Both the position numbers and the translations under genes were made by a program. Below, piece after piece: positions 13,613-38,858 of a DNA stretch of 64,000 bases. The notes under the pieces were generated by a model that saw only the letters and a program-made list of their open reading frames with translations, was not told where the DNA came from and did not search any database. Every line of letters starts with the position of its first letter. The stretch's first letter is position 1. Location of the stretch: IMG/VR virus record IMGVR_UViG_3300020477_000001, positions 94,302 through 158,301 of that record, one strand, 5' to 3'. Origin of the DNA: a virus.

Positions 13613-13621
13613 AAAAACTTC

Positions 13622-13653
13622 TTGACCGAAATTAAAAAACCATATAGCATAAT
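13622..13653 (+). promoter_or_regulatory. sigma70-type promoter of the ncRNA/TnpB unit
   Basis: TTGACC-17 bp-TAGCAT, with the ATTAAAAAAC spacer shared by other promoters in this window. Confidence 0.65.
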
Positions 13654-13657
13654 CCCC

Positions 13658-13819
13658 AGTCGCTAACAGACTGCTACGGTGGGTTGCACCGGAAGGGGAG
13701 GGAAACCTCCAAATGCCGAATAGGTATGGTTCGCTTGCGAAGCAGATTCGGAAAGTTCCTAGGGGTCAACGGGGGGAGGATCATCCCGATCCTCCTCCCG
13801 CCCCCAAACCCTACAACAC
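13658..13819 (+). ncRNA. putative tracrRNA/omegaRNA-like scaffold upstream of the TnpB-like gene
   Basis: Hairpins CGGTG-GGTTG-CACCG, GGAGG-GAAA-CCTCC and CCGAAT..TTCG-CTTG-CGAA..ATTCGG, then AGTTCCT (13754-13760, complementary to the repeat core), a long GC stem and terminal CTACAACAC. Confidence 0.65.
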
Positions 13820-13828
13820 ATCTTTAAA

Positions 13829-15337
13829 ATGAAAAAAAAATCTAAACTTCAAAAGGTTGAACAAGAAACTATTCCTGTTAAATACCGAATCTACCCAAAC
13901 CTTAAGCAACGCAAATACCTTGACAGATGCTTTCTTTCCAGCCGAATCGTATGGAACTGGCTGCTAGGAGTACAGAAAGATTATGACCGTGGTCTTACTG
14001 AATGGGTAAAAGAAAAGTATGCCAAAGAGCTACAGAAATTCTGCAAGAAAGAAGGCTTCGAATTAAGCAGTCCATTTGAGCACGAAAAAATAAAAGAATT
14101 AAAAAAAGGAGAAGCGAAAAAATTTCACACGGAAGTCATTCGCCTCAAGAAGGAGGAAGTTTTCCCCTCTGTCTTAGGGATAGAACTCCTTAAAGCCATT
14201 ATTCCTAATGCAGAAGAAGACGAAATCAAGAAGATGATAGTCAACAAAAAGAATCCTTCCGCTTCTAACAAGACTATCAACATCATGGACTTAAAAAGGC
14301 AAGTAAAAAACCTTCGAGAAGATAAACCAATCTTAAACCAAGTCGCATCCCAAGGAATCCATCACGTACCGCTTAACCTAGCTAAAGCTTGGAAGGCGTG
14401 CTACGACAAGAACCGCCCAGATTCCGGTGAGCCTAAATTCAAGAACAAATTCGCGAAGCAGTCATTCACTTTTGACACAGCAAAGCTTCAAGGAAATAAG
14501 TTATTCCTCCCGCCTAAAAGCAAAAACATTTTCATTAAAACAAAAGTCCATCGAGAGATGGAGGGTGAGCAAAAAACAATTACTGTTACTAAAAGCAAAA
14601 CAGGAGAATACTACGCCTCAGTTAACTTTAGGCAAGATGTATTCTTCCCGAAGCCCAAAAGTTTTAGTAAATCGAGCACGGTTGGCATTGACCTAGGAAT
14701 TAAAGATGACTACATCATTATGTCTAACGACATGGGGTCAATCAAAAACCCAAAATTTTTCAAGAAGCATGAGCGCAAAATCGCAATGCTAAATCGAAAA
14801 TTATCGCGCTCCCAGCCGAATAGCAATTCACGCAACAAAGTTCTACACGAGCTTAACCGCGAGTACGAGAAGCTCTCTAAAGCAAGGGAAGATTTTCAGC
14901 ATAAGGTAACACACCAGATCGTAACTAACCCAAACATCAAGGCGGTGGCTGTCGAGGACTTGAATGTGAAGGGCATGACAGCTAAGAACAAACCAAAGGA
15001 GGGCGAAAATGGCCACTACTTACCAAACAATCAGTGCGCCAAACGAGGACAAAACAAAGCCACTCTGGACGCTGGGTTTGGAAGAGTTAGGCAGATGCTT
15101 GACTACAAATGTAAGCGCAATGGCAAAACGTTTGGAAAAGTTGACAGGTTCTTTGCATCCTCCAAAACATGCAACAACTGCGGTCATATCAATAAAGAGC
15201 TCAAAGTTTCCGACCAGTACTGGACCTGCGAAAAATGTGGCGAGCATCACGAGAGGAACTTTAATGCGGCAAATAACGTGCGAGATGAATTTATACGCGC
15301 AAGCAAGCAGAAAAAGAAAACCAAGAACTCGAAATAA
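13829..15337 (+). CDS. tnpB: TnpB/Cas12f-like RNA-guided RuvC protein, RuvC-III D>N
   Basis: KYRIYPN HTH-OrfB start, PKFK, GIDLG (D288), VEDLNVKGM (E376), CNNCG..CEKCG Zn finger, ERNFNAA (N477); no tnpA nearby. Confidence 0.9.
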   Translation: MKKKSKLQKVEQETIPVKYRIYPNLKQRKYLDRCFLSSRIVWNWLLGVQKDYDRGLTEWVKEKYAKELQKFCKKEGFELSSPFEHEKIKELKKGEAKKFHTEVIRLKKEEVFPSVLGIELLKAIIPNAEEDEIKKMIVNKKNPSASNKTINIMDLKRQVKNLREDKPILNQVASQGIHHVPLNLAKAWKACYDKNRPDSGEPKFKNKFAKQSFTFDTAKLQGNKLFLPPKSKNIFIKTKVHREMEGEQKTITVTKSKTGEYYASVNFRQDVFFPKPKSFSKSSTVGIDLGIKDDYIIMSNDMGSIKNPKFFKKHERKIAMLNRKLSRSQPNSNSRNKVLHELNREYEKLSKAREDFQHKVTHQIVTNPNIKAVAVEDLNVKGMTAKNKPKEGENGHYLPNNQCAKRGQNKATLDAGFGRVRQMLDYKCKRNGKTFGKVDRFFASSKTCNNCGHINKELKVSDQYWTCEKCGEHHERNFNAANNVRDEFIRASKQKKKTKNSK

Positions 15338-15407: not shown

Positions 15408-15538
15408 AAAATAAATAAAAATGAAAAGCGACAATCCAAACCGAGGCAACGGCAAGCACATTCATAAGTCACCAATCAATATGGACAATCCACAAAAAAA
15501 AGAGGATAGTGACTGGTGGGCAGAATTGTGTAAAAAAC

Positions 15539-16111
15539 ATGGAGCAAAAAACGCTTGGAAAAAAGAGAACAAAAAGAAGGTATGACTACGCTCATGGCTC
15601 TGAATCAGCAGTGATCGCCAGAGATGAATACCTCGAAAGAATAAAATGGAAGCCGCACGAATATGAAGTCATAAAAAACAATTACAATAATCATTCTGAT
15701 GCGGAAATAAGCCTCAAGTTCCTGCCTCACCGCACACCCGAATCAATAAGAAGATGTAGGCGCTCAATGAAATGTCACAGAAAGCCGAGCCACCAAATTT
15801 GGACAGAAGAAGAATTAGAATTACTGTATATCCATTGGAGAGACTACGACCAGAGGGAGCTTAAGGAAAAATTCTTCCCAAACAAAACCGTTGAGCAGGT
15901 TAGGAATGCTAAAATGCATCGCGGGCTAAAGAAGCCCCCAGTCTGGACCAATGAAGAGAGAGGCTTGCTGATAGACCACGGAGCGAACTATGACAGAGGA
16001 CAGCTACAGAAGCTGTTTTTCCCAAATAAAACCAAGGACCAAATAAGCCACATGAGAAAGCACCTCGGAATCAGAAGAAACCTAGGCGATAAAGAGATTA
16101 AAAAAGTGTAA
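15539..16111 (+). CDS. Myb/SANT-like repeat DNA-binding protein
   Basis: Three repeats of W..EE..L......F.P.[RK]T. Confidence 0.6.
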   Translation: MEQKTLGKKRTKRRYDYAHGSESAVIARDEYLERIKWKPHEYEVIKNNYNNHSDAEISLKFLPHRTPESIRRCRRSMKCHRKPSHQIWTEEELELLYIHWRDYDQRELKEKFFPNKTVEQVRNAKMHRGLKKPPVWTNEERGLLIDHGANYDRGQLQKLFFPNKTKDQISHMRKHLGIRRNLGDKEIKKV

Positions 16112-18205: not shown

Positions 18206-19129
18206 ATGTACAATTTGTGCTGCATATCAAATTCATTAGCCAAAGAGGGTCACAAGTTTCAGACCATGACTTGGGCTAGGTTCTCCAAGTTACCCCGCGA
18301 AGAAGCTATTGCAATCGTTTCTGCTCGCACTCTTAACAATCTGAAAGTTACGCGCAAGATTCTTGAGCAGTGTGCAGAGCATGGCTGGGGCTATCGCGTT
18401 AGCTCTGCTTTATTTCCACTTCTTACTTACGATGTAGCAGAACTCAAAATTCAAGACTACCCAGACTGGATTGACATACAAGCTGCATTTGCAGACTGCA
18501 ATATGTTCATCAATGACAATCGTATCCGCATCTCATGTCATCCAGATCAGTTCAATGTTCTTGCAAGCTTGGGTAAAGCGCAGGTAGAAAAGACTATCAA
18601 AGAACTCAATCATCATGGTTGGTTCATGGATATGCTTGGTGCTCCTCGCGACTATCGCGCACCCATCAACATTCATGTCAACAACACCAAAGGCGAGCCT
18701 TCAGAAATTGCTGACCGTTTTATGCTCAACCTTTACAAGTGCGACCAATCTGTACGCTCACGACTAGTCATAGAGAACGAAGACAAAGGCATCTGGACTC
18801 CAGCGTTACTTGTCGAGCATTTCACCACATTGCCCATTACTTACGACAACCTACACCACAAATGCTTACCCGATGGCCTCACAGAGGATGAAGCCTATCG
18901 CTTGTGCTATAACACATGGCAAGATAACGGTTACTTCAAACCACTGTTTCATTACTCAGAGTCTCACCCAGACAAAAACAATCCACGTAGCCATGCCGAC
19001 ACACCCACCGAGATACCGCTGGACGGCGGACATTCTTTCCCTGTTGACTACGACATAGAACTCAAGTCAAAAGATGACGCCATTAAAGAGATACAAAGAT
19101 TAGAACTGAAGGGGTTAATAAATGGATAA
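18206..19129 (+). CDS. uvsE: UV DNA damage endonuclease
   Basis: YRVSSALFP, ISCHPDQFNVL, ENEDK, DNLHH, HYSES, SHAD, ELKSKD. Confidence 0.9.
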   Translation: MYNLCCISNSLAKEGHKFQTMTWARFSKLPREEAIAIVSARTLNNLKVTRKILEQCAEHGWGYRVSSALFPLLTYDVAELKIQDYPDWIDIQAAFADCNMFINDNRIRISCHPDQFNVLASLGKAQVEKTIKELNHHGWFMDMLGAPRDYRAPINIHVNNTKGEPSEIADRFMLNLYKCDQSVRSRLVIENEDKGIWTPALLVEHFTTLPITYDNLHHKCLPDGLTEDEAYRLCYNTWQDNGYFKPLFHYSESHPDKNNPRSHADTPTEIPLDGGHSFPVDYDIELKSKDDAIKEIQRLELKGLING

Positions 19130-20039: not shown

Positions 20040-20207
20040 TGATAACGCCCCCGAAGATCATAGGTTTTATATGGGTAGCATTCTTAACACTGTTTTACTT
20101 CTTCGCCTCAATAGCTGTTTTTATTGTTACTTCAATCGCTAATATTTTTAAAAAAGAATAAATAAAAAACCTTGACTAAAGTTAAAAAACTCTCTATTAT
20201 ATTACCC

Positions 20208-21089
20208 ATGAAGAGAATTGATACTTATTTCGCAAAAGAGTACGAGGCAGACACACCCACTGCCTCTATGCGTAAGTTGCGCCCAGTGGCTGAAGCAGCT
20301 AGTGCTGCTGGTTACGCAAACATCTTGAAGACATCCTCCAGCGAAGGCGTTAGCGACAAGCTAAAAAAAATTCACAATGCAGATTACGTGGAAGCCTTCT
20401 CTAACGGTACTTATCCGCTCAGCGAAAGCAATGGATGGGGCTGGAGCAAAGAGATTAGGGACGGCGTTTTCAGAATTAACACAGGGCAGCTTGACGCTGC
20501 TAAAGCTGCGTTAAGCAACGGCATTGCAGCAAATGTAGCGCAGGGGTTTCACCATGCTGGAATCGAAAGAGGCTGCGGTTATTGTACCTTCAATGGGTTA
20601 GCACTAGTCGCTAATGAATACAAGACCAAGAAAGTATTCGTTTTAGACTGCGATGAGCATGGAGGCAATGGTACGGCTGAGTTTACCAACATACTGGACA
20701 ACTTATCGCAGGTAACCATCAACGGCTCTAATTTCGGAACCGAAGAGAACCCCCGCAGCCGATGCATTACTCTTCCTCGAATCACTAACCGATTTGAGCT
20801 TTACGAAGATGCACTGGAAGAAGGCTTCTCTATAATGGATAGGTTCGAGCCCGACTTGGTTATCTACCAAGCTGGTGCTGATCCTCACATTGACGATCCC
20901 TTGGGCTCTCTGGGTATGACAACCGAACAAATGTACAACAGAGACAAGAAAGTATTTACGAAGCTCAAAGCTTCAAATATACCGACAATGTTCGTACTGG
21001 CGGGGGGCTATCAAACCCCGATTGAGGAAAAACTTGTACCGCTGCACTTGAACACCTTCAAGGCTGCTCACGAAGTATACAACAATTAA
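20208..21089 (+). CDS. histone deacetylase/acetylpolyamine amidohydrolase-family protein
   Basis: GFHHAG, GYCTFN, LDCDEHGGNGT, QAGADPH.DDPLG, GGY; start moved to the leaderless ATG. Confidence 0.9.
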   Translation: MKRIDTYFAKEYEADTPTASMRKLRPVAEAASAAGYANILKTSSSEGVSDKLKKIHNADYVEAFSNGTYPLSESNGWGWSKEIRDGVFRINTGQLDAAKAALSNGIAANVAQGFHHAGIERGCGYCTFNGLALVANEYKTKKVFVLDCDEHGGNGTAEFTNILDNLSQVTINGSNFGTEENPRSRCITLPRITNRFELYEDALEEGFSIMDRFEPDLVIYQAGADPHIDDPLGSLGMTTEQMYNRDKKVFTKLKASNIPTMFVLAGGYQTPIEEKLVPLHLNTFKAAHEVYNN

Positions 21090-22738: not shown

Positions 22739-23692
22739 ATGAGTAGCTACCTAGAAGAAAAGTCGTCGGAAGATTTATATTTTAATGAAATTTCAAGATA
22801 CGATTTAATCTCCTCGGATCGAGAAAAAGAGTTAGCAAAAAAAATAAAAAAAGGCGGAAGAACTGGCAAAAAAGCCCTTGAAGAATTAGTTAATGCTAAT
22901 TTAAGATTAGTCGTAAAGATAGCTGGAGAGTTCAAAGGCTTTGGGTTGGATTCTGGCGATTTAATCAACGAGGGAAACCTCGGATTGATGAGGGCCGCTG
23001 AAAAGTATGATGGCCGCGAAGGCGTTAAGTTTTCAACATATTCCGCGTATTGGATAAGGCAAAGTATCTACAGAGCCCTCTCGAATAAGAGCAGAACAAT
23101 TAGGCTTCCCGTTCATGTTTGCGCTGCTAATTCTAAAATAATTAAATTTATTTCAAAATACCAAGAATCCAACAATGGAAAAAAGCCTTCAGTTAAGCAG
23201 ATAGCGAAAGCCACCAACGCAACAGAAAGATTGGTGTCGGATGTAATAAATGGTGGAGTGACCAACGTAAACTCTCTAGACAGAGAAATCGGAACTGATG
23301 ACAGCGGCTCTAAAGAGACCCTAGGGAACATAATTGAGGACCAAAACGCTGAATCCCCCGACCAAATCTGGAAAAACGTGGAAGATGTTAGTATTCTATT
23401 AAAATTGATACAAAAATTAAATAATAGAGAAAGATACATAATTTGCAATAGATATGGAATAGGAACCAAGACCCCAAAAACTCTAGAAGAAATTGGGGAA
23501 CACTTCGGCGTTACTAGGGAAAGAATAAGGCAGGTACAAAAAGTAGCAATGATGAAGTTAAAAAACTACATGGATAAGTATTATAGATACAAGCCAGAGG
23601 TTGAGGATCATTATGTTGAAGGCCGAAGATTTGTAGCAAGGGTTAAAAGAGAAGAAAAAGCCAGAGAAAAGAAAAAAAAGGTTAAAAAATAG
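22739..23692 (+). CDS. RpoD/RpoS-like sigma-70 factor
   Basis: ANLRLVVKIA, DLINEGNLGLMRAAEKYD, FSTYSAYWIRQ, TLEEIG..FGVTRERIRQ. Confidence 0.92.
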   Translation: MSSYLEEKSSEDLYFNEISRYDLISSDREKELAKKIKKGGRTGKKALEELVNANLRLVVKIAGEFKGFGLDSGDLINEGNLGLMRAAEKYDGREGVKFSTYSAYWIRQSIYRALSNKSRTIRLPVHVCAANSKIIKFISKYQESNNGKKPSVKQIAKATNATERLVSDVINGGVTNVNSLDREIGTDDSGSKETLGNIIEDQNAESPDQIWKNVEDVSILLKLIQKLNNRERYIICNRYGIGTKTPKTLEEIGEHFGVTRERIRQVQKVAMMKLKNYMDKYYRYKPEVEDHYVEGRRFVARVKREEKAREKKKKVKK

Positions 23693-24514: not shown

Positions 24515-25381
24515 TGCAAAAGCCAGACAACAAAATGAAGCGCTGGCTAAACTCTCAGACCAAAGATTTAAAAAAAATTAATTTTAATTCTCTGGTAAAT
24601 TCATTCAAAGACAAGTTTAAGGTCAGTATCAACGATGCTCGTATGTACGTGATGCAATGGGACCACGACAGAAACAAGCATTAAACCGCCGTATTAGATG
24701 CTTGACATATATTAAAAAACTCCTTATCATATATCTACAGACATACCTTAAGATATATATAGGAACAAACAATGGACTTAATATTTGCGGCAATAGTGAT
24801 ATACTTCTTCTGCTTTGCTTTTAAGCAGCTAGTCAAGGATTTGTAAATCGAGGGGGAGCTACAACACAACAAATTGTGAAAACAATAGCCCTGTTTTTAC
24901 GAGCTTTTTACACATTTTTTAAAACACTCACAGTGAACTACAACACTATAAGCTAGTATGGAACTAATAAACACAATAAAGCATTTCAAAAGAATAAAAT
25001 AAAATATTGAAGTGTATTAAAATGGGTTAATGTGGGGTGCATATTATATATATATCCGTCAAGCATTAAATTTAAAAACTATTCACATATTTATTAACAC
25101 TGAAACCACGTCAAGCAAAAACAACAAAAAACAATAAAAAACTTATTAATATTTTCTAAGTCAAGAAAAAACAAACAAAAACTTAAAAAATTATTATTGA
25201 CTATATAGCAAATATATGGGCTTAAAACCAAGAAAAGAAGGAGAAGCAAAAAGAATAGCAACATACATAATATTAATCATATATGGAATTGTTATACTTA
25301 TAGTTTATCTATTAAATAAATTATTTTCTTGACACAGATAAATGGAATTAAAACACAATAAAGAATAGAGGGTTTTTTTTG

Positions 25382-25482
25382 TTGACTTAACTTAAATAAA
25401 TTAGTATAATGTTTCCAAAGGGGCTTCATCACAACAAAGGTAAGATTTTTCTTGACTTAAGTTAAATAATATATTAAAATTT
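25382..25482 (+). promoter_or_regulatory. tandem duplicated sigma70 promoters upstream of the repeat region
   Basis: TTGACT-17-TATAAT at 25382-25410 and a near-copy at about 25453, both followed by TTTCCAAAGGG; no ORF downstream. Confidence 0.6.
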
Positions 25483-25577
25483 TCCAAAGGGATTTTTTTT
25501 ATTTTTTTTAATTCTTATAATAGGAATTATTTTTTTCTTGACAAGTAAATAATGTTTCTTATTCTTATTATGCTTAA

Positions 25578-25795
25578 GGAGCTACACCACGTTATTAACA
25601 CCAACGTACACGGAACTACACCACCCATTTGCCGACGATTGATTTTTAAGGAACTAAAGCACGGATTCGAACTCACGTCTGGAACTACGACACCCATTTA
25701 CCAAGGAGCCGCAACACGTCGAATGCAGTGGTATATTTGTGAACGCAATCGAGCCAAATAATAGGAACTAAATACACGAGGTCGGGAGTTCAGAA
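25578..25795 (+). repeat. mini-array of 13-nt cores GGARCT-NNNN-CAC
   Basis: Cores at 25578, 25612, 25650, 25681, 25705 and 25764, separated by unique sequence. Confidence 0.7.
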
Positions 25796-25800
25796 AAGCC

Positions 25801-25829
25801 TTGACTCATCTTAAAAAACTCTTCATAAT
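25801..25829 (+). promoter_or_regulatory. promoter of the CRISPR array
   Basis: TTGACT-catcttaaaaaactctt(17)-CATAAT; same class as the tnpB-unit promoter. Confidence 0.7.
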
Positions 25830-25925
25830 AGTCCCCAGATTAAGAAACTGATCTTTGACATAGGCACTGCAACACACGAGGCCAAAGACATTCAAGGGAC
25901 TACAACACAACATTATGGTATTCCT

Positions 25926-26476
25926 TAGCAATTTAAGGGACTGCAACACAGTAAGGCGATTATAACATCGCGCTCGACGGTTCGCACTGGTACTAATTTA
26001 AGGGACTGCAACACTGCAACCATGCTAACTAACGTGGTTACACAGCTTCGCACTGGTAGCAATTTAAGGGACTGCAACACTGTTACACACATCGCTGCGA
26101 TGAAGCGGCGGCTTCGCACTGGTACAGATTTTAGGGACTGCAACACCGTATCAGAACGAGATATCGTCCCGCCTTGGGCTTCGCACTGGTAGCAATTTAA
26201 GGGACTGCAACACTTAGTCGAACCGCATAACGTCGAGTGTCTGCTTCGCACTGATAGCAATTTAAGGGACTGCAACACAATGAGGCAGATAATGGAAGGG
26301 GTAGCTAGCTTCGCACTGATAGCAATTTAAGGGACTGCAACACAAAACTGCACCAACAGGAAGCGGAATCACAGTTTTGCACTGGTACTAATTTAAGGGA
26401 CTGCAACACAAGGGGTGACGTAGTGGAAGCGACCACATAAGCTTCGCACTGGTACAGATTTTAGGGACAACAACAC
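25926..26476 (+). CRISPR. CRISPR array: 8 full repeats plus 1 partial, 36 bp (GCTTCGCACTGGTAGCAATTTAAGGGACTGCAACAC), 8 spacers of 29-31 bp, no adjacent cas genes
   Basis: Repeats start at 25926 (partial), 25979, 26045, 26111, 26178, 26243, 26308, 26374, 26441; spacers are unique, lengths 29,30,30,31,29,29,30,31. Confidence 0.92.
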
Positions 26477-26495
26477 AGTAAAGAACCCTACGTAC

Positions 26496-27358
26496 ATATT
26501 TGTGAATGATTTTTGGACAAATAAAGGAACAACAACACTGAATCTCTAGGCGATATTTGTGAATGATTTTAAGGCAAATAAAGGGAACTACAACACTCTG
26601 TTAAAGTCCGTCCAACACGAGGCGGCGAGAATTGATGCCGATCAAAATACTTAATTATTGATTGACTAATTTTTTTGTCGCTCATTTGTGAACGTCAAAG
26701 AGGCAAATAATATAGGGGAATTAAATTAGATATTTTAGATTAATAGGGACTAATTAAACACGATGCTCAATCCCAATATTGTTAATTTATGAATGATTTT
26801 TTGCCAAATAAGGGTTATTTAACATAAGGGAATTTCGTATACAAGAAAAATGTTGCCCCGGAGAAAACACCCCCTTATAAGAAATATATTAAAGGAACTA
26901 AAACACAACAAAAGTGATGAAGAATTTAATTTTAATTATTATTATTTTAATTATTACTGGTTGTTATACAGCCAAGGAAAGAGTAATGCCTCTTGGTCCC
27001 CATGATGATAGCTATGGTAAGAATTGGGTAAGTAATTAAGGAACTGTAACACCAAATCCAGCATGGCGTTTAGATATTTTGGGAACTAAAACACGGGTAT
27101 AGCTCATTTGAAATAGGAACTAGAACACATGTGGTGCGCCATTATATTTGTGAACGCGATTTTTGCAAATAAAGGAACTACAACACCAGCGGTTTCAGAA
27201 GCTATCTGTGAACGCGATTTTTGCAAATAAAGGAACTACAACACCCGTCATGGAATTATAACACTAACTCCTCAGATGGAACTACAACACGTTGAGATAC
27301 TGCTTTCGCGGGAGCTATCTGTGAACACAATTTTTGCAAATATAGGGAACTACAACAC
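26496..27358 (+). repeat. second repeat family (~43 bp) ATATTTGTGAAYG..TTTT.GCAAATAAAGGAACTACAACAC
   Basis: Copies at 26496-26538, 26553-26596, 27144-27186, 27203-27244, 27316-27358 (also 25733-25777; decayed copies near 26684 and 26785). Confidence 0.75.
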
Positions 27359-27510
27359 GACGGGAACTCACGACGGAGAGTTAATCAAGGAACAACAACA
27401 CGAAAACTTTTTCTGTATTCTTGATCTTGTAATGGAACTACAACACTCAAGGGCGGCTCATTTTAATTTAAAATAAAAAAGGGAACTACGACACTTGCTA
27501 TTATTAATTG
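27040..27510 (+). repeat. mini-array of 13-nt cores
   Basis: Cores at 27040, 27082, 27116, 27174, 27232, 27252, 27278, 27346, 27389, 27434, 27482. Confidence 0.75.
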
Positions 27511-27589
27511 TATCTTTAATTAGTGTAATTATTATTGTCTATAAGTTTTTATTGACTGTAATTAAATTGCTCTATATAAAAGGATACAC

Positions 27590-27826
27590 ATGAAAAAAAA
27601 GAAACTATCCCCGCAAGCCCAAATATACGAGAAGGCTTGGAACGACGTAGTGTCCGAAATGAGTGACCATAAAAGAAATATTATTATTAATAATTTTACT
27701 GTTGTCAGTGGTCATCATGTATATGAGAATAAATATGATCAAAGGGTAGCAGATGAAGCAGCTAAGGAAGCCCGTATACGAGGTGACCAACAAATAGAAG
27801 CACTGTTTCCAACTGGCAAGTATTAA
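27590..27826 (+). CDS. hypothetical protein
   Basis: ORF track; upstream TTGACT promoter. Confidence 0.5.
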   Translation: MKKKKLSPQAQIYEKAWNDVVSEMSDHKRNIIINNFTVVSGHHVYENKYDQRVADEAAKEARIRGDQQIEALFPTGKY

Positions 27827-27827
27827 A

Positions 27828-27925
27828 GGTACTACAACACGAGCGGGCACTACAGTGGTAGGAACAACAACACAGTCCCCTGCTATAATCTATGGAACTA
27901 AAGCACGAGTGCATATAGTAGAAAA
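27828..27925 (+). repeat. three-unit mini-array, 33-bp period (13-nt core plus 20-nt spacer)
   Basis: Cores at 27828, 27861 and 27894, directly after a stop codon. Confidence 0.75.
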
Positions 27926-30400: not shown

Positions 30401-30906
30401 AAATTTCCTCCCAAACCGTGGGCTATCCCAACCCCACACCGGAGTCGATGGAATAGAGGCGGAAGAGAGCTCCGCACTAGCGATGGGGATATCGCTACGT
30501 TTAACACCATCGGCTCCTTGACTTCTTTCAAATAACCTCGTATACTAATACCAGCAAACCAAATAATACAATTTTATCTTTCCTGTATTATTGAAAGTTC
30601 AAACTTCTTAATGTCTCTATGCAATTTAGGGACAACTTCTGCCCTTCATCGGCAAACAAAAATGAATCAAATAACACCAAATAAAAGCGAACCATATACG
30701 AACAAATAATAGACAAATAAAATAGATATAAGAATATAAGAATATAAAATTTGGCGGGTGACCCTATAATAATAGAACAACAATTGTTAATAACTTTTTA
30801 ATAATGTTAATAATTTTTTCTTGACTTAAACATACAGAAAAACGGAATAACAATTATTTTTTTCTTGACAAGCAAAATCGTGTAGAAAATTTTTTATATT
30901 TTTTTG

Positions 30907-30968
30907 TTGACTCGAAAACCTCGGCGCGAGACAATTGCATTGTCGCCCGCCACGTTTTGGCCTGTCAA
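30907..30968. repeat. TTGAC...GTCAA palindromic element, copy 1
   Basis: CGGCGCGAGACAAT-n-ATTGTCGCCCGCC core. Confidence 0.85.
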
Positions 30969-31385
30969 GCATTTAATTAAATTATTTTACCAAGCCACAG
31001 TACCTTTCGTATTACTATTAATACAAGTAATATTATTATAAGATTATTATAGTTCATTTATTCTAGTGATAAGATTGTCGATTCCGTCTTGCTTCTTTTG
31101 GTAGCTCTCTTTATCTCTGCCTATGTGGGGACTTAAGTCACTAAGGAAAGACACACGCCACCGCTGCCATTCTAATAAAGAAACCTTTAATAATTCTAGT
31201 TCTTGTTTTGATATTTCTATTTTCATTATTGTTATAAGATTCGAAGGGTTTACCCGCCCCCATTACGGGGGCGGGGTGGGCGCAGATACTATCGCGTGAG
31301 CTTTTCCATCTCACAAAACAATACTATCAACACATACGCCCCGATGATGTATCCGAATATTTCGCCACGCATCACCTCCTTCCAA

Positions 31386-32132
31386 CTACTTCCACTCAAC
31401 AAAGCCAGTGATTTGCTCTGGTTGACGTAGAAACTTTTTGATATTCCCAATCTCAGCAATGCTAGGCTTGTATTTAAGGCCCACGATTTTACCAATTGGG
31501 TCTGTAAAGCGCAAGTCTGATTCATCGCCGTTAATCACTTCCCAACCCCCGAAGTCTGTAGCAGGTAGTTCACCCGCGTATACTACAGCAACATTGACGC
31601 CCCAGCCCAGAAATTGCGCTACTTGCTCGTCACTGGTGTTTTCACTGCGGGAATAAGTTAGGTGGTAGTTCTTGGGCAGTTTACCCTGTGCATATTCTAC
31701 AACGCGGGAAATGTGCTTGGTATAATCATAGAACTGTAAATTGGGGAAAGCTTCAAAGATGTTCTGCCCGTCCAGCTTGTAATCCTCCCAACGTAAATCA
31801 CTTGTACCGTTGAGACGTTCGCAGGGAATGAGATTCTTTTTATTGGATAGCTTGATATGATTTGCTGTTTCCTTCCATAGTTGACGCAAAAATGCTTCTT
31901 CATCATTGACAAGAAACTTTGTCTTTTTGATTCGTGCCTCTTGAATTGGATTCATGCGCCCACGGCCAGAAGTAAACAAACACGCCTTGCGGCATTCTTT
32001 GGATGCGCTTGTGCAGGTGTTCGTTACTCCGCTGACGTTACTTGGGGCAAGGTAAATGATGGCGGTGGAGTATTGCTTTTTGCGTCCTTTGACAGTCTTT
32101 GCGTTGTTATCGATACCGAGAATCTTTTGCAT
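31386..32132 (-). CDS. GP88-family phage protein
   Basis: C..AS..C...CL, RLNGTSD, FYDYTK, NYHLTYS, GDESDLRF. Confidence 0.7.
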   Translation of the reverse strand: MQKILGIDNNAKTVKGRKKQYSTAIIYLAPSNVSGVTNTCTSASKECRKACLFTSGRGRMNPIQEARIKKTKFLVNDEEAFLRQLWKETANHIKLSNKKNLIPCERLNGTSDLRWEDYKLDGQNIFEAFPNLQFYDYTKHISRVVEYAQGKLPKNYHLTYSRSENTSDEQVAQFLGWGVNVAVVYAGELPATDFGGWEVINGDESDLRFTDPIGKIVGLKYKPSIAEIGNIKKFLRQPEQITGFVEWK

Positions 32133-32200
32133 GAGTAGATTATAGGGATAAGAATAAAGAGAGTCCAGAATAAAATTTAATTATTTTTAAAATTAAATGC

Positions 32201-32264
32201 TTGACTCTGAAAACGCGGCGCGAGACAATCTCTGATTGTCGCTCGCCGAGCTTTAGCGTGTCAA
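32201..32264. repeat. 64-bp palindromic element, copy 2
   Basis: TTGACTCTGAAAACGCGGCGCGAGACAATC-TCT-GATTGTCGCTCGCCGAG...GTCAA. Confidence 0.9.
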
Positions 32265-32615
32265 TAAAAAAAGCCCACCTTTCGGCGGGCTGTGAATTGC
32301 AAGAACTAAATTAAGCCGAGTAGCCTAAGCCAGCTATCTGGATGGTCTGGCTCTACTGGGTCTCCGTCTGGCGTTTCGCATACAGAGTCCCAGACCCATT
32401 CCTCAATTTGTTCCATGTCGGGAGTCATAAATTCCCGCCCTTGCCATGTTATTACTTTAGGTATCATAATATTTTAGTCCTCCAATCTTTCGTTATCGCG
32501 AGCCATGTTCTCAAGTTTGCCCCGCTTGTCTTCACTGAGTTTCTCCATTTCTTCGCGGTTTAACTCCTCATCCCATAATATGTCTTCTCTTGATACACTC
32601 ATTGTTTTCCTTTGG

Positions 32616-32810
32616 TTAGTCGTTAAAAATGTTCATTGCCCTCTCCAAGCCTTGTCGAACTTCGTATGGGTAAGAGCTATGTTGCTCTATGATTCTCTTG
32701 GCTTGATGCTCTACGGTTTCGGCAACCTCAAGTGATATTCTGAGCTTCTGGGTGATTTCTTGCATTTGCCTCACCCTTTCGTCTTGCTTCTCGCGTTCTT
32801 CGTTCGACAT
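32616..32810 (-). CDS. hypothetical protein (leaderless)
   Basis: TATAAT-6 nt-ATG. Confidence 0.5.
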   Translation of the reverse strand: MSNEEREKQDERVRQMQEITQKLRISLEVAETVEHQAKRIIEQHSSYPYEVRQGLERAMNIFND

Positions 32811-32887
32811 GGTTCTATTATAGGGACACGAATAAGGAACACAAGAAAAAAAGAAAAAAAGTTTTTTTAAAAAAGAGAAGAATAAGC

Positions 32888-32951
32888 TTGACCCAAAAAA
32901 CGCGGCGCGAGACAATCTTCGATTGTCGCCCGCCGAGCTTTCGCTCGTCAA
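32888..32951. repeat. 64-bp palindromic element, copy 3
   Basis: Same consensus; loop TTC. Confidence 0.9.
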
Positions 32952-33387
32952 GCTTTTTTTATCGCTGCGGCGGAAGTTCTATCGAGTCGCCGCCAGAGAA
33001 GTCAAGATTATCTTCATCTGGGTATGATTGTTGCCACGCGATAAAATCCAGCATTATTTTTTCGGGGTTCGGCGTATTCCGCACAACCCTGCTCAACTTA
33101 CAAGCTACCTCGTATGCGTTGGGGCTTTCGTCTTTTATGATTTTATTGTCAAATTTGTATTCAACTGCGCGAGTTTTGTCATTTAATAGAATTGCAAAGT
33201 GTTTGTCCATAATGTTTCGGGGATTTGCCCCGCCCCGAAAGGGGCGAGGCTTTTGTTTTTGTTTTAATTAAAGGCATCCCAAAAGATTGCCAGCATTATT
33301 ATTAGTAGGAACCACGAGGCATCGCCAACGCATCACCTCCCTTCATCTTAAAAAGTTCCCCGCCCCCGAAGGGGCGGGGTGTGATTG

Positions 33388-34284
33388 TTAAGCCTCGACG
33401 GCTACGAGTTCCTCCTCTTTAGGAGCCTCGACCTTGAGCACTAGCTCGGAGCGATTCTCTGGAATCGCGAGCCGATTTACTGCCTTGGTGAACCGCTGAG
33501 TCAGCGTGTTCGCTTGCAGGTAGCGACCATCCGCAACGCTGGTTTGGTGCGTGAAGTGCTGAGTGCCAGCATTCAGCAGATTCCACAAGTTGCGGTCACT
33601 GTCCTCCTCATGGCGAGGATCGTTCCAGACTTGCGCGATGCCCTCGCGGACAACCTCGCTCACCACTTTGTCCTTCACCATGTGCTGAAGGATGTTCAAG
33701 CCCTGTTCTTGGGTCAACTCGACAGCAGCCATGCGGCTGAAGATGTTGTCCTCATTCCGCAATGCGCGGAACGAATCCAGAGCCTTGCTCAACCCATCGG
33801 CAATGCCGCCTAGGTTGATGATGCCAGTGTGGCGCTTGGAGAAGTCAAACTCCTTGTCCATAGCGACCATGCCGTTGCTGCAAACCAGTCGCAGCATACC
33901 CAAAGCGAAACTCGCTTTCTGGGTTTTGTCGAAGGAATTACCCAGTGTAAGGCGCATTCCCATAGCGTCCCCAACTTTGACGTTGGGAATGTTGACAACC
34001 TCATTCGGGAAGTTGTATTCGGCCCACACACTCGCGCCATCGGCGGTTGCGCGGATAGTCCTCTCCCAATCGAGATTGGCAGAGCGGAACGCGTCCTCGG
34101 CGGTATTCACCAAGTCGCGTGTTTGAACCACTTTGTAGTGGTCGGAGACGGGAGCGATTAGCTGACCAGTGTCCATACGCTTGGTGAAGAAACCGGGAGC
34201 TTTGACTCCCTCGCCATCACGGACGCGCACTAACTCAACGTCATAATCCCAAACGTCATTTAGCTTACGGGCTGTTCGTGCCAT
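33388..34284 (-). CDS. DUF932-family protein
   Basis: VSDHYKVVQ, NSFD, RLVCSNG, RH, NLWNLLNA.T. Confidence 0.75.
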   Translation of the reverse strand: MARTARKLNDVWDYDVELVRVRDGEGVKAPGFFTKRMDTGQLIAPVSDHYKVVQTRDLVNTAEDAFRSANLDWERTIRATADGASVWAEYNFPNEVVNIPNVKVGDAMGMRLTLGNSFDKTQKASFALGMLRLVCSNGMVAMDKEFDFSKRHTGIINLGGIADGLSKALDSFRALRNEDNIFSRMAAVELTQEQGLNILQHMVKDKVVSEVVREGIAQVWNDPRHEEDSDRNLWNLLNAGTQHFTHQTSVADGRYLQANTLTQRFTKAVNRLAIPENRSELVLKVEAPKEEELVAVEA

Positions 34285-34470
34285 AAGTTGTCCTTTCGCT
34301 TTCGGGGTTTCGTTTCGCGAGGTACTGCCTGTTTCCCTCGCACTGGGAATATTAAACCATTATTTTTAAGTTCGTACAAGATTAAAATGTAACTATTTTA
34401 AGTAGTCACAGGAATGATCACGGGGGAAAGTCAAGAATAAAAAGAAACTTTAATTGTGAGTATTTAGGGC

Positions 34471-34534
34471 TTGACTCTGAAAACGCGGCGCGAGACAATC
34501 GGAGATTGTCGCCCGCCGAGCCTTCGCTCGTCAA
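34471..34534. repeat. 64-bp palindromic element, copy 4
   Basis: Same consensus; loop GGA. Confidence 0.9.
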
Positions 34535-34611
34535 GCTTTTATTTTAATAAAATTACTCGAAAAACATTGCTATAATACTTATCGAAATTACTATTGCACT
34601 AATCGCTTCCA

Positions 34612-34968
34612 TTATATCACCTCCAGTTTTTTTATTGATTTTGTTTTAACTTTAAGCATCCAAGACTCGGCGTTTTCTCCGATGGCTTGCAACCAATCTT
34701 TAGGGGTAGGTACGAACCCGCAGTCTTCCTCAACGTGTTGTTCTGCCAGCATCTTCGTGGGAATCAACTTACCATTTGAGTTTCGGATAACGTGTCCGAA
34801 CCTTTCAACGGCCCATTGAATACCCGCAGAATGATGACGCAATGCGCGGTGAGTCCAATCACCTGTGAATGCTTTGGTTTCATCAAACCAATCGTGCAGA
34901 GCAATGTAGTCAGTAGGGTTACCTCCCCACTTTTTAGCAGATGACTCACTGTGTTTCCAAGGTGTCAT
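34612..34968 (-). CDS. DUF6915-like protein
   Basis: P..H..SSAKKWGG...DYIALHDWFDETK, HRALRHHS.G, EQHV.EDCG..PT..DW. Confidence 0.65.
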   Translation of the reverse strand: MTPWKHSESSAKKWGGNPTDYIALHDWFDETKAFTGDWTHRALRHHSAGIQWAVERFGHVIRNSNGKLIPTKMLAEQHVEEDCGFVPTPKDWLQAIGENAESWMLKVKTKSIKKLEVI

Positions 34969-35305
34969 GGTACTCCTCCCCTTTCTGAACGGCGTGATAC
35001 CATTCTTGCGTTGACATTGTTTGGTTGTTGAGGTCATAAGTGATAGTGTCACCATAGCTTGTCCCATCACCAGCACCACTGTATTGGTAAACAGTCCATA
35101 CCCATTCTTCAATGTCTGATTCTAGGTCACGGATTTTTTTACGAACCTCATCCGTTTGTTCACCGTATTGGGCCATGTTATCACCTCGTATTTCAACGTA
35201 AAGGTATCCTTCATCGCTACCTCCCGAAAATTCGAGAGTGACAATATCGCCTCCGAGGGCGACGACTCTTTCGTATAGTTCTTTCTTTAATGGTTTTGCG
35301 TCCAT
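34946..35305 (-). CDS. DUF6878-like protein
   Basis: LEFSGGSDEG motif; adjacent to the DUF6915-like gene. Confidence 0.5.
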   Translation of the reverse strand: MDAKPLKKELYERVVALGGDIVTLEFSGGSDEGYLYVEIRGDNMAQYGEQTDEVRKKIRDLESDIEEWVWTVYQYSGAGDGTSYGDTITYDLNNQTMSTQEWYHAVQKGEEYHDTLETQ

Positions 35306-35692
35306 GATTTATTCTCCTATTAGGGTTACTCCAACCACTTTCTCGTGGGGATATGTTTGTTCGAATTTCCTCAATGCATGCGCCCGACTCTCGGCAAGGA
35401 TAGATACCCTTTCTCCGAACTGGGTGCAGATTGCGTATAGTTTACATTTTACTTTCATGTTAGCTCCTTTTTAGTCTCTGTCTTTCAAGTCAAGAGGGGC
35501 GTTGAATTGGGCATCCCACTGGGCTTGCTCTTCATCACGCTTGCGGTTGATCTCCTGCCTTCTTTTCATCTCAGCGAGCCACTCGTGGAGGTCTTTCTTG
35601 AATTCGTTTTTGTTGTCTTTCATGTGTCTGATTATAGAGAGTTTAATAATAATGTCGAGAATTATTTTTAATTATTTTTATCAATTATATGC

Positions 35693-35756
35693 TTGACTTG
35701 AAAAACGCGGCGCGAGACAATCTTCGATTGTCGCCCGCCGAGCTTTCGTTCGTCAA
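35693..35756. repeat. 64-bp palindromic element, copy 5
   Basis: Same consensus. Confidence 0.9.
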
Positions 35757-35871
35757 GCTTTTATTTTAATAAAAAAACCCCAGCAGTGAAGCCGCACTGC
35801 TGGGGAGTCTAGTGGTAATGATGCCGACGTTTGAGCAGCGAATCTCGCCCGTCAACATACTCCGTTCAATT

Positions 35872-37863
35872 TTACGAAATTGTCCCGTGATATTCTTGTT
35901 CTATCTTTTCAACATTCGTTTGGGACTTCGGGCTGTAGTCGTGGACTTTTATGTGATTCTTTTGGAATCTGTGATAGTCTTCCTTTTCTATGCTACTAAT
36001 CCACTCTTCGGCCTTCTTTTCCAAGAGTTTTTCCATAGCCTCTTCTTCTTCCAAACTATCGTAACTAGCCGCGCCGTACTTCATATCCAATGCGCTTTTG
36101 AGTCCGCGCTTGAGGCGTTGCCTGTTGGTCCAGACGAACGCGCAGTATGGTGCGTGTGTTTCATTAATCCAGTCTAGCTCTTTGCTGCCCGTGGCGTTGT
36201 TGTTGTACAAAGACCAGTAGCGAGCGATTAGTGCTTCCTTGTCGTCGGATGTTAGCACCAGCTTCATCACTGAGCCGTTCTTGGCGCAACTAAGTTTTAC
36301 TCCGTCGTTATTCATGTTCTAGTATTCTCCTCTCTGTAATTCGAGTTGTTCTTGGTGGTCGGCAGCGCATTCGCGTTCGCTCGGCATTTCCTCTGGGTTG
36401 TTTTGCACATAGGCTTCCGCGTGCTCCATAAGAAACTTTTCAATGTCTTTGCTCCAGCTAACTAGTTCCACCTCTTTATCGCCCATCCACTCTGTGGCTT
36501 TCGTGATGTAGATATGCTCTGGTTGTCCGTGCTTATCCCACTCGACTTCAAACTCCGCGTAGAGTTCGATTCCGTCTTTTTCTAGTTCTTCTAAACTGTG
36601 TTTCGTTGTCATGCTTCTGATTATATAGATTAGCTTTTATGAGTCAAGATATTTTTATTTGAGTGGCACGAAATATCCTTCTTCCTCATAAATACCCAAG
36701 GGCAAATTCTTTGATTTAAGTCTTTCGTATGTTTCTAATTCAAGCGCAACTTCATCTTCGATAAGTTCATTTACATAGTATGCACCATTACTAAATTCTT
36801 CAGCGTAGAATTTCTTGTAGTATTTTCTAGCTTTAGCTTCAATAGCTTCTGCTTCAGCAATTGATTCTTCTAAATGGGGATTTGTTTCGTTTTTCATAAT
36901 TGTTATTCTTTTTCTTCTAGATATTCTTCCATGTAGTTCTGCATCTCGGAATGAGCCTTGTTCATCTTCACCAACCAAGGCGGAAGGTTAGGGTTGTCGT
37001 GCCAAATTCCATAGCGTTCATAGAGTTCGCAAAGTATGGTGTCGATTTTGTCTTCGTAGTACTTTAAGTCTTCGTGTGTCATGATATTAATGAATTACTT
37101 TTGTATTGGTCACCATGTCAAAGTTTAGCTGAACGTGTTTAGACCTATCTTCGTAATAGGGTTGTCGTGTGTCACTTATGGCATCTTCGACACAACCATA
37201 TGGGCCTTGTTCAACAAACCAGCCATTTTGGCTTGTTATAAACCAGCATTCGTCTGCGGGATGTGTTCCCGCTTGGATGACTCGCTTTTCGATTTGAAAG
37301 ATTTCGTTTGTCATGGTGTTGATTATAGGGATATGGGCTTCATTGGTCAAGATTATTTATCCTCCATAAATTAATATTTTAAGTTCTTTTGCGACGTTGA
37401 CTAGAATAAACCAATCAACAGATATCAATATTGTTTCTATAATTGTTTTCATATTAAAATGTCCTATGTTTCAAGTCTTTTGGCGTAGTAGTTGGTGGTC
37501 GCCACCCTTGATCGCATTTGCAATACTTTGGGCAATCATCTTCCGCGTTGCCTTCTTTCGCTGCCGTTTCGTGACAGGTGGGACAAAGAAATAGATGCCT
37601 CATCTGCGGATGGTCTTGGCAGAACTTTTTAGTTAACGGGCCGTATTTCATTAGTATATCCAGTTCGTTACTTGTGCGTGAACGAAATCGGATGGTAGAC
37701 TATCCAATTCGTCATCAGTTAAATCTCTCACTTCACCATCTGGCGTGTCTGGGTCATCGTATTTTGCGCTCTCGATGTAAGCATCTACATAGTCGGGAGC
37801 ATCCTCATGGTTGATTCCATCGATTTTCACGTCTTCAATAAATGCTAGGTTAATCTCTTTCAT
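35872..37863 (-). CDS. run of small minus-strand hypothetical genes (35872-36315, 36319-36612, 36655-36897, 37087-37314, 37454-37651, 37651-37863)
   Basis: ORF track; several have TTGAC/TATAAT promoters 6-7 nt from the ATG. Confidence 0.5.
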
Positions 37864-37930
37864 GCCTCGATTATACAGACCTCAATAACTATGTCGAGAA
37901 TTATTTTGAGAAAGTTTTTTAATTATATGC

Positions 37931-37994
37931 TTGACCTAGAAAACGCGGCGCGAGACAATCGGAGATTGTCGCCCGCCGAGCTTTAGCTCGTCAA
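37931..37994. repeat. 64-bp palindromic element, copy 6 (at the strand switch)
   Basis: Same consensus. Confidence 0.9.
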
Positions 37995-38061
37995 GCTTTT
38001 CTTTCTTTTATTTTCTTTATTTTTTACTGTACTTATATTTTCGTATCTCTATAATGGAGCC

Positions 38062-38598: not shown

Positions 38599-38703
38599 AA
38601 AAAAGATTGACTATGATATTTGATAATGTTAATCTCTTTTCAGTCATAGGTGAAGTACATTAAACGCCCGTTAAGAGGTAGCGGCCTGTGACAATTAATT
38701 TAT

Positions 38704-38851
38704 GTTGGTGAAATTGGTGCTATGACGAGGGAAACATTGCGAACGCCTTTAAGAATAGCAGCCCGACGCAGGAAAGCCCCTAGTGGAAGCGCGACGAAGC
38801 TAGACGGTGACACGATACTGGTCGGGTCGGGTTCGAATCCCGACACCAGCA
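38704..38851 (+). ncRNA. tRNA-like RNA (acceptor stem plus T-arm, ~148 nt, no canonical anticodon arm)
   Basis: GTTGGTG/CACCAGC-A acceptor stem; TCGGG-TTCGAAT-CCCGA T-arm; internal CCCGAC/GTCGGG stem. Confidence 0.6.
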
Positions 38852-38858
38852 ACAATTT

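What the first reader, a model, noticed from the sequence alone, without database searches (positions are those of the whole stretch)
15251..15270. RuvC-III catalytic Asp replaced by Asn: possible programmable repressor rather than nuclease
D288 (GIDLG) and E376 (VEDL) are intact, but the third motif reads HERNFNAA where TnpB has HDRDxNAA (N477, codon AAC at 15257). The protein also has an insertion of roughly 100 aa after the N-terminal HTH. Known: nuclease-dead TnpB/Cas12 derivatives (TldR, Cas12m, dCas12f) act in transcription control and work with short pairing. Inference: this fits the very short (11-25 nt) spacers of the mini-arrays and suggests multiplexed silencing of host or competitor genes.
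Basis: partly seen in the sequence, partly recalled or inferred. Interest (0 to 1): 0.72.

Follow-up and report, generated by a model that had tools for sequence, protein, structure and literature searches.

The report
Phage TnpB effector with Asn catalytic site
A complete 158-kb marine phage carries a transposon-derived RNA-guided protein whose third catalytic aspartate is a conserved, selected asparagine, so it probably binds rather than cuts DNA, and a lineage nested inside the same clade has aspartate there and long ordinary CRISPR arrays.

Summary
ORF 13829-15337 (+) encodes a 502-aa TnpB-family protein with D288, E376 and N477 (AAC, 15257-15259). N477 aligns with the RuvC-III aspartate of ISDra2 TnpB (D361), ISFba1 TnpB (D371; D371A is inactive) and RdCas12n (D484).

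It is not a private variant or an error. All 11 Asn-type proteins, in three deep lineages, read ERN, with both AAC and AAT codons. Contigs from two other studies match this stretch exactly. All 110 sampled ordinary TnpBs have Asp.

The gene is single-copy, syntenic in related phages and under strong purifying selection (dN/dS 0.03-0.055). The genome has no tnpA, resolvase or cas1.

New here:
- A TNB arginine kept in 99% of ordinary TnpBs is Gln in most Asn-type proteins.
- The rest of the RuvC/TNB module is the best-conserved part of the protein, unlike TldR.
- An Asp-bearing lineage is nested among the Asn lineages (AU p=0.0017). It has long regular arrays, whereas Asn-type loci have short or no arrays plus many irregular short-guide units.
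- Several short guides are conserved between distant phages, with codon-like variation.

Loss of cleavage, repression and the targets remain untested. The reading as a binder or silencer is partly supported (about 0.55). Earlier notes of this scan cover this same genome only.

The parts
13829..15337 (+). Effector gene: 502-aa TnpB-derived, type V-like protein, Asn type, single copy in the phage genome
   Evidence: dN/dS is 0.03 against L166.
15257..15259 (+). Codon AAC = N477, at the RuvC-III catalytic Asp position (ISDra2 D361, ISFba1 D371, RdCas12n D484)
   Evidence: Asn in 11 of 11 Asn-type proteins; Asp in 110 of 110 ordinary TnpBs. The codon is AAC or AAT in different lineages.
15251..15253 (+). 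Codon GAG = E475, the -4 position. It is Asp in 93% of ordinary TnpBs, Glu in all Asn-type proteins and His or Tyr in the Asp-type lineage.
   Evidence: ISFba1 D371A is inactive although its -4 Asp is present.
14690..14692 (+). D288, RuvC-I catalytic Asp, intact and invariant
14954..14956 (+). E376, RuvC-II catalytic Glu, intact and invariant
15215..15217 (+). Q463, between the two CxxC pairs of the TNB zinc finger, at a position that is Arg in 99% of ordinary TnpBs. It is Gln in 9 of 11 Asn-type proteins and Lys in the Asp-type lineage.
   Evidence: That it corresponds to the active-site R490 of Un1Cas12f1 (R490A loses cleavage) is an inference and was not aligned here.
13985..14293 (+). Insertion 1 (residues ~53-155): helical REC-like expansion absent from ordinary TnpBs. 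It is the least conserved part of the clade.
14984..15073 (+). Insertion 2 (residues 386-415) after RuvC-II, in a lid-like position. It is highly conserved and shared with RdCas12n and some TnpBs.
15170..15238 (+). CxxC...CxxC zinc finger of the TNB domain (C448, C451, C467, C470), intact
13621..13828 (+). Phage-type promoter, then a structured RNA region upstream of the gene ending in ...CTACAACAC. The core GTGGGTTGCAC is conserved upstream of homologues (with changes in Asp-type L002).
   Evidence: (D11, D12). A 241-nt contig from an RNA library covers 13645-13885, which is only a weak hint.
25914..26500 (+). CRISPR-like array: 36-nt repeat ending GGGACTGCAACAC, period 65-67, 29-31-nt spacers
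24855..27873 (+). Cluster of handle-plus-short-guide units, all on the + strand (13-nt handle GGRACTRCAACAC, spacing mostly 32-68). Outliers lie at 16869, 21091, 30332 and 30369.
   Evidence: 34 matches against 0.17 expected; none in the rest of the genome at up to 1 mismatch.

Best explanation
The gene encodes a domesticated TnpB-derived effector of a phage-borne, type V/TranC-like guide-RNA system. It is not a transposon gene. It most likely loads guides that carry the 13-nt handle (array crRNAs and stripped-down short-guide units), presumably with the structured RNA encoded just upstream, and opens an R-loop on complementary DNA. The RuvC-III metal-ligand Asp is Asn (N477), and the near-universal TNB Arg is Gln (Q463). 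The complex is therefore probably unable, or barely able, to cut double-stranded DNA. It would act by occupancy, blocking transcription or replication at many fixed sites, several of which appear to lie in protein-coding genes of the host or of co-infecting elements. The rest of the RuvC/TNB pocket (D288, E376, R476, zinc finger, lid-like insertion) is kept under strong selection. That implies a remaining role, such as guide-RNA processing, Mg-dependent holding of the displaced strand, or residual nicking. In one nested lineage the residue is Asp and the guide repertoire is a long ordinary array, consistent with a cutting mode. Shown here: identity, conservation, selection, phylogeny, co-occurrence with handles, and the array contrast. 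Inferred: loss of cleavage, silencing, and the nature of the targets.
For: - Position. N477 maps to the catalytic Asp of three studied relatives, and ISFba1 D371A abolishes cleavage and interference.
- Conservation. Asn is present in 11 of 11 clade members across three lineages and Asp in 110 of 110 ordinary TnpBs. The Asn codon has turned over synonymously.
- Second hit. The 99%-conserved TNB Arg is Gln in 9 of 11. Cas12f R490A loses cleavage.
- Functional gene, not an IS. dN/dS is 0.03 and 0.055. The gene is single-copy. The complete genome has no Y1 TnpA, resolvase or Cas1. The position is syntenic in related phages.
- Handles co-occur with the effector in all lineages, always on its strand.
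- Array contrast. Asn-type loci have 5-9-unit arrays or none, plus many irregular units. Asp-type loci have 10-22 regular units and almost no scattered ones.
- Guide families are conserved between phages whose effectors are ~41% identical, with third-codon-position variation on either strand.
- Precedents. A natural NDD/HDD motif makes Cas12m DNase-free. Short guides give binding without cutting in TnpB. TldR and dCas12f use 9-16-nt guides.
Against: - No biochemical data exist, and Asp to Asn is a milder change than the tested Asp to Ala.
- D288, E376 and the whole RuvC/TNB module are the best-conserved part of the protein. This differs from TldR or dCas12f, where the site decays or is truncated, and would also fit a still-active enzyme.
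- Asn-type phages keep arrays with 29-31-nt spacers, as interference systems do.
- A nested Asp lineage may mean the pocket never lost competence.
- No target was found anywhere, so repression is unsupported by any target location.
- The array contrast is a single phylogenetic contrast, and several contigs are short.
Confidence: 0.55

Rival explanations
1. The Asn-type protein is still a DNA nuclease, full or attenuated, for example a nickase or a slow single-turnover cutter. Asn477, perhaps helped by the invariant Glu475, would still hold the metal. The system would be phage-borne interference against competitors or the host chromosome, with guide length deciding between cutting (array spacers) and mere binding (short units).
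For: D288, E376, R476, the zinc finger and the lid-like insertion are strictly conserved, and the RuvC/TNB module is the most conserved region. Arrays with 29-31-nt spacers are retained. Glu475 is invariant in all Asn-type proteins. An apparent Asn-to-Asp return in a nested lineage suggests the pocket stayed competent. In ISDge10 TnpB, guide length alone switches between binding and cutting.
Against: In ISFba1 the -4 Asp cannot rescue D371A. The -4 position varies freely among Asp-bearing TnpBs (H, N, G, V, R, Q, K, L, S), so it is not a catalytic position. Asp is kept in 110 of 110 ordinary TnpBs. The TNB Arg is also lost. A single carboxylate-to-amide or His change is reported to remove the second Mg and DNA cleavage in Cas12m.
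Confidence: 0.22
2. The protein is DNase-free but the retained D-E-N pocket works on RNA. It would cut the long guide transcripts into mature units, as in Cas12c-type processing and the RuvC-dependent omega-RNA processing of TnpB. The protein would be both processor and binder.
For: Dozens of guide units lie head to tail and need processing. The complete genome has no Cas1, and the proteins scanned next to the gene showed no RNase-type domain, although most of the genome's ORFs were not screened. TnpB is reported to process its own guide through RuvC (quoted). The pocket is strongly conserved.
Against: Two-metal catalysis on RNA should suffer from the same Asp loss. Host RNases could do the job, as assumed for TldR. 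There are no RNA end data; the only RNA-library contig is uninformative.
Confidence: 0.25
3. The bound complex recruits rather than blocks. It would be RNA-guided activation or recruitment of another factor, for example the phage sigma-70-family protein at 22739-23692 or the Myb-like repeat protein encoded directly downstream at 15509-16111, by analogy with dCas12f-sigmaE.
For: A sigma-70-family gene lies just before the guide cluster, and a weak Myb-like protein follows the effector in the window's subclade. dCas12f-sigmaE sets a precedent.
Against: The sigma is a full-length group-1-like factor, not an ECF type, and is not adjacent to the effector. The Myb-like gene is missing next to the effector in L001, L165 and L002, where arrays or sugar-metabolism genes follow. 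No interaction was tested.
Confidence: 0.08
4. It is an ordinary IS200/IS605/IS607 tnpB copy that picked up an inactivating mutation and is decaying.
For: TnpB-family domain hits.
Against: dN/dS is 0.03-0.055 with saturated dS. The genome has no tnpA or resolvase, and the gene is single-copy. The same syntenic slot is used in related phages. The Asn state is fixed over deep divergence.
Confidence: 0.01

Closest known systems
TldR (TnpB-like nuclease-dead repressors; bioRxiv 10.1101/2023.11.30.569447)
   Same: A TnpB-derived protein that is not linked to a transposase and is often phage-borne. It has a damaged RuvC site, short guides (9-16 nt) and fixed, conserved targets, and it acts by occupancy.
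   Different: TldRs were defined by fewer than two intact DED residues, and many lack the C-terminal ZnF/RuvC part. Here only one DED residue is changed and the ZnF/RuvC module is intact and highly conserved. TldR uses one adjacent scaffold-guide RNA. This system has a separate upstream structured RNA, a CRISPR-like array and dozens of handle-guide units. Targets are unknown here.
Cas12m and Cas12c (DNase-free type V effectors)
   Same: Array-guided DNA binders. In Cas12m a natural non-canonical RuvC motif (NDD or HDD) is reported to lose the second Mg and DNA cleavage while the fold is kept.
   Different: These are larger, distantly related proteins (sequence E about 1e-5; Foldseek ranks 26-35). 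In Cas12m the change is in RuvC-I/II, not RuvC-III. They are bacterial or plasmid systems and are not known to have short-guide mini-units.
TranC systems and Cas12n (type V-N), the TnpB-to-Cas12 intermediates
   Same: A TnpB-sized effector with a REC expansion, a nearby array of 32-38-nt repeats, a helper RNA and no adaptation genes. The C-terminal half is most like RdCas12n among natural solved proteins (E 1.6e-31), including the insertion after RuvC-II. TranCs are also found in phage genomes.
   Different: Described members have an intact DED triad and cut DNA. This clade has Asn at RuvC-III (except the nested Asp lineage), its helper RNA lies upstream of the gene, and it has scattered 13-nt-handle units. 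Assignment to a numbered TranC clade could not be tested.
dCas12f-sigmaE RNA-guided transcription (PMC13472631)
   Same: A small, naturally nuclease-dead type V relative with 14-16-nt guides and regulatory use.
   Different: dCas12f has lost part of RuvC by C-terminal truncation and works with an adjacent ECF sigma factor. Neither applies here.

Membership tests
TnpB family (IS200/IS605/IS607 RNA-guided endonuclease) | HTH/WED-REC-RuvC-TNB domain architecture recognised by family models | tested here: met
   PF12323, PF01385 and PF07282 all score above their cut-offs. NF040570 scores 227.7 bits against a cut-off of 100. The top Foldseek hits are TnpB structures.
TnpB family (IS200/IS605/IS607 RNA-guided endonuclease) | Complete RuvC D-E-D catalytic triad | tested here: not met
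   The triad is D288-E376-N477, and N477 aligns with ISDra2 D361.
TnpB family (IS200/IS605/IS607 RNA-guided endonuclease) | Part of a mobile IS element: tnpA or a serine recombinase nearby, multiple copies | tested here: not met
   The complete 158-kb genome has no PF01797 or PF00239 match and holds a single copy. The gene sits in the same syntenic slot in related phages. IS ends were not searched.
TldR | Fewer than two intact DED residues (original definition), often with C-terminal ZnF/RuvC truncation | tested here: not met
   Two of the three residues are intact, and the zinc finger and C-terminus are complete and conserved.
TldR | Guide-dependent DNA binding at promoters that represses transcription without cutting | not testable with these tools
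   No targets were found. ChIP-seq and reporter assays are needed.
Type V CRISPR / TranC-like system | TnpB-like effector genetically linked to a CRISPR array whose repeat supplies the guide handle | tested here: met
   Arrays abut the gene in L001, L165, L002 and L196-L200, and lie 10.6 kb away in the window. The same 13-nt handle occurs in all, on the effector's strand.
Type V CRISPR / TranC-like system | Separate helper RNA (tracrRNA) that pairs with the repeat | tested here: inconclusive
   A promoter plus a structured region with a conserved core lies upstream of the gene in the window, L165, L201 and L002. Pairing with the handle and expression were not tested by me.
Type V CRISPR / TranC-like system | RuvC-dependent cleavage of target DNA | not testable with these tools
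   The sequence argues against it for the Asn type (N477, Q463). The Asp-type sister lineage may retain it.
Type V CRISPR / TranC-like system | Adaptation module (cas1/cas2) | tested here: not met
   The complete genome has no Cas1 match. Cas2 was not searched. Absence of these genes is also usual for TranC.

The most novel reading that the evidence does not exclude
Residue 477 would act as a natural evolutionary switch in a phage-borne TnpB-derived guide system. The Asn state (with Gln463) makes a non-cutting binder that is fed by dozens of hard-wired short guides against coding genes. The otherwise intact catalytic pocket lets a single-base change return the protein to a cutting enzyme, as seems to have happened in the nested Asp lineage, which then built long ordinary arrays. 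That would be the first case of reversible toggling between silencing and cleavage in one RNA-guided lineage.
Probability: 0.3. Interest if true: 0.85.

Novelty: new variant of a known kind. Interest (0 to 1): 0.7.

Why it matters
Known nuclease-dead relatives (TldR, dCas12f, Cas12k) show decayed or truncated RuvC domains. Screens for them required two or more mutated catalytic residues, so a clade with one clean Asp-to-Asn change in a strongly conserved pocket would have been missed. If the Asn form binds without cutting, it is a compact (502 aa) natural multiplex DNA binder with a 13-nt handle. The Asn/Asp sister lineages would then give a ready-made natural experiment on how RNA-guided nucleases turn into regulators and perhaps back. 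It would also show lytic-type marine phages using programmable silencing on conserved coding genes.

Tried and rejected
- Sequencing error or private variant: rejected.
- Glu475 as a relocated catalytic residue: judged unlikely. The -4 position is variable in Asp-bearing TnpBs, and ISFba1 D371A is inactive with its -4 Asp present. The geometry could not be measured because the AF2 model gives no coordinates.
- Self-targeting: guides have no matches in the phage's own 158 kb beyond shuffled controls, nor in the related phage loci.
- Protospacers for array spacers: none in INPHARED and none for three spacers in IMG/VR.
- Targets of conserved short guides: an 18-mer scan of GTDB genomes gave 28 scattered hits against a hand estimate of about 17 by chance, with flanks no better than chance. 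In-frame hits to sulfatase (GKWHLG) and AbrB/MazE-like N-termini are leads only. A codon-degenerate 21-mer in IMG/VR gave 4 hits, about chance by hand estimate.
- IMG/VR and JGI metagenome scans with the clade alignment returned only ordinary TnpBs.
- No close relative exists among cultured phages.
- Rfam and tRNA scans of the window found nothing.
- The careful tree did not finish, so quick IQ-TREE trees were used.
- RNA evidence: one oligo-dT library contig over 13645-13885 does not show transcription.

Full report
**Observation.** The ORF at 13829-15337 (+) encodes 502 aa. GIDLG gives D288, VEDL gives E376, and HERNFNAA gives N477, with codon AAC at 15257-15259. Pfam finds the three TnpB modules: PF12323 at residues 17-52, PF01385 at 281-384 and PF07282 at 417-484. 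NCBIfam's guided_TnpB model scores 227.7 bits. The V-U2 c2c8 model aligns over residues 17-457 but stays below its cut-off. The stated coordinates are exact.

**Is N477 the catalytic position?** HMMER alignments to solved structures answer by numbering.
- In the ISDra2-numbered design 9YYG, D288 falls on residue 191 and E376 on residue 278.
- In ISDra2 TnpB itself (8BF8, 8H1J), N477 falls on D361. D191, E278 and D361 are the published triad.
- In 8IAZ the aligned residue is Ala. That entry is the ISFba1 D371A catalytic mutant, and D371A abolishes cleavage and plasmid interference.
- In RdCas12n the aligned residue is D484, its stated catalytic Asp.

**Is it conserved?** The first homologue search found nine proteins of about 500 aa (39-95% identical), all reading ERN. 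A search from the sister protein added a tenth, P0274.
- Of 268 homologues collected, 224 read DRD. The catalytic position is Asp in all but this clade and one Tyr. The -4 position varies freely.
- In a 125-sequence alignment, 64 positions are at least 85% conserved in 110 ordinary TnpBs. Position 477 is Asp in 110 of 110 and Asn in 11 of 11 Asn-type proteins.
- The Asn codon is AAC in the window group and in P0274, and AAT in L163, L165 and L001. The amino acid has therefore been kept through synonymous change.
- Contigs from two further studies match the region without differences.
- The finding's own refutation condition (a private variant or an error) therefore fails.

**Further changes and what is kept.**
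- The same alignment shows a second systematic change at residue 463. The Arg between the two CxxC pairs of the TNB domain is present in 99% of ordinary TnpBs. It is Gln in 9 of 11 Asn-type proteins, and His or Lys in the other two.
- The Asp-type lineage has Lys at 463.
- In Un1Cas12f1 an Arg from this domain (R490) sits in the active site, and R490A loses cleavage. That the two arginines correspond is my inference.
- D475 becomes Glu in all Asn-type proteins.
- Every other near-universal residue is retained: G286, I287, D288, E376, L378, M383, Y426, K427, the four Cys, R476, N479 and A480.
- Within the Asn clade the RuvC/TNB segments have 34-43% invariant columns, against 8-21% in the REC parts.
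- This is the opposite of TldR and dCas12f, where the site decays or is cut off.

**A working gene, not an IS.**
- dN/dS is 0.03 between the window and L166 (dS about 1), and 0.055 between L165 and L001.
- The genome is a complete 158,301-bp virus record with terminal repeats.
- It has one copy of the gene and no Y1 transposase, resolvase or Cas1.
- Relatives sit in the same slot after a cell-wall hydrolase gene in related phage contigs.
- A terminase gene in the window confirms a phage.

**Link to guides.**
- The 13-nt handle GGRACTRCAACAC occurs 34 times in the window (0.17 expected), always on the + strand, and nowhere else in the genome at up to one mismatch.
- The same handle accompanies the effector in L001 (24 matches at up to two mismatches), L165 (17), L201 and the Asp-type loci, always on the gene's strand.
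- A promoter and a structured region with a conserved core lie upstream of the gene in several lineages.

**Phylogeny.**
- The clade of 13 proteins has full support.
- The four Asp-bearing proteins (P0121, P0269-P0271, motif L[HY]RDVNAC) are sister to Asn-type P0274 with SH-aLRT 100. They are nested among Asn lineages.
- An AU test rejects Asn-type monophyly (p=0.0017). One caveat applies: the group was named after the tree had been seen.
- The residue has therefore changed at least twice.
- One gain plus one reversal needs 2 steps on the drawn tree, against 3 for gains only.
- The -4 residue also favours a reversal: it is Glu in all Asn types, His or Tyr in the Asp type, and Asp outside the clade.

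**Contrast in guide repertoire.**
- Five Asp-type contigs carry 10-22 regular units (period 64-67) immediately upstream of the gene. They have almost no scattered handles in about 10 kb of flank.
- Asn-type loci carry a 5-9-unit array or none, plus many irregular units with spacing of 32-62.
It is only one phylogenetic contrast, and some contigs are short.

**What the guides say.**
- Several short guides are conserved between phages whose effectors are about 41% identical.
- Their differences fall on third codon positions or give conservative replacements.
- One family reads V-I-N-T-[ND]-[VI]-H in the forward sense.
- Another reads [MI]-[VIL]-G-K-W in reverse.
- A third reads [YN]-[RH]-L-[EK]-I in reverse, with three different Leu codons.
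- Both orientations occur, which fits DNA rather than mRNA targets lying in coding genes.
- No target was found in the phage itself, related phages, cultured phages, IMG/VR or GTDB genomes.

**Comparison with known systems.**
- Short guides are typical of natural non-cutting relatives: TldR 9-16 nt, dCas12f 14-16 nt.
- An active TnpB given a 10-nt guide binds without cutting.
- In Cas12m a natural NDD or HDD motif is reported to lose the second Mg and DNA cleavage.
- The C-terminal half is most like RdCas12n among natural solved proteins, including the insertion after RuvC-II. The fold is closest to TnpB, Fanzor2, Cas12f and LaTranC.
- The AF2 model is of moderate quality (pLDDT 71.7) and gave no coordinates for measuring the site.

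**Verdict.**
- I put about 0.55 on a cleavage-impaired binder that silences fixed targets.
- I put about 0.22 on retained or attenuated cutting.
- A retained RNA-processing role for the pocket is compatible with the main reading.
- The system is a new variant of the known kind of naturally nuclease-impaired TnpB/Cas12 derivatives.
- Earlier notes of this scan describe the same system on this same genome only.

Noticed in passing
window 30889-42932: A family of 6-8 copies of a promoter-like TTGAC box followed by a long GC-rich palindrome (GCGGCGCGAGACAATC...GATTGTCGCCCGCCGAGC), spaced 0.7-5 kb apart (families D3, D4, D9, D10, D20).
   Followed up: no
window 7221, 13618, 18166, 20168, 24698, 25797, 27938, 28255: A recurring phage promoter-like consensus, CTTGACTTAAnTTAAAAAACTnTATA. 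One copy drives the RNA upstream of the effector and one sits before the array (D11, D12).
   Followed up: partly
window 15509-16111: A 200-aa protein with internal repeats and a weak Myb-like DNA-binding match lies directly downstream of the effector. It is present in L166 and L167 but not next to the effector in L001, L165 or L002.
   Followed up: partly
window 22739-23692; 20172-21089; 18206-19129: The phage encodes a full-length sigma-70-family factor just before the guide cluster. It also encodes a histone-deacetylase-family protein and a UvdE UV endonuclease.
   Followed up: no
L002 3990-4010, L199 4188-4208 and L001 8437-8456: An array spacer of the Asp-type phages (TGTAATACAATAAAGG...) overlaps, shifted by 2 nt, a short guide of an Asn-type phage (TAATACAATAAAGGAT). 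Both may aim at the same unknown sequence.
   Followed up: no
L002 4178, L199 4648, L196 3883, L198 824, L201 450: A terminal short guide, TCCTACATTGCT, after a degenerate last repeat is shared by all Asp-type loci and by Asn-type L201.
   Followed up: no
window 63578-63998: A long run of 9-bp-periodic imperfect repeats at the window's end, overlapping the minus-strand ORF 63542-63943.
   Followed up: no
window 13645-13885: A 241-nt contig from an oligo-dT marine RNA library covers the upstream structured RNA and the gene start, beginning near the predicted transcription start. DNA carry-over is not excluded.
   Followed up: partly
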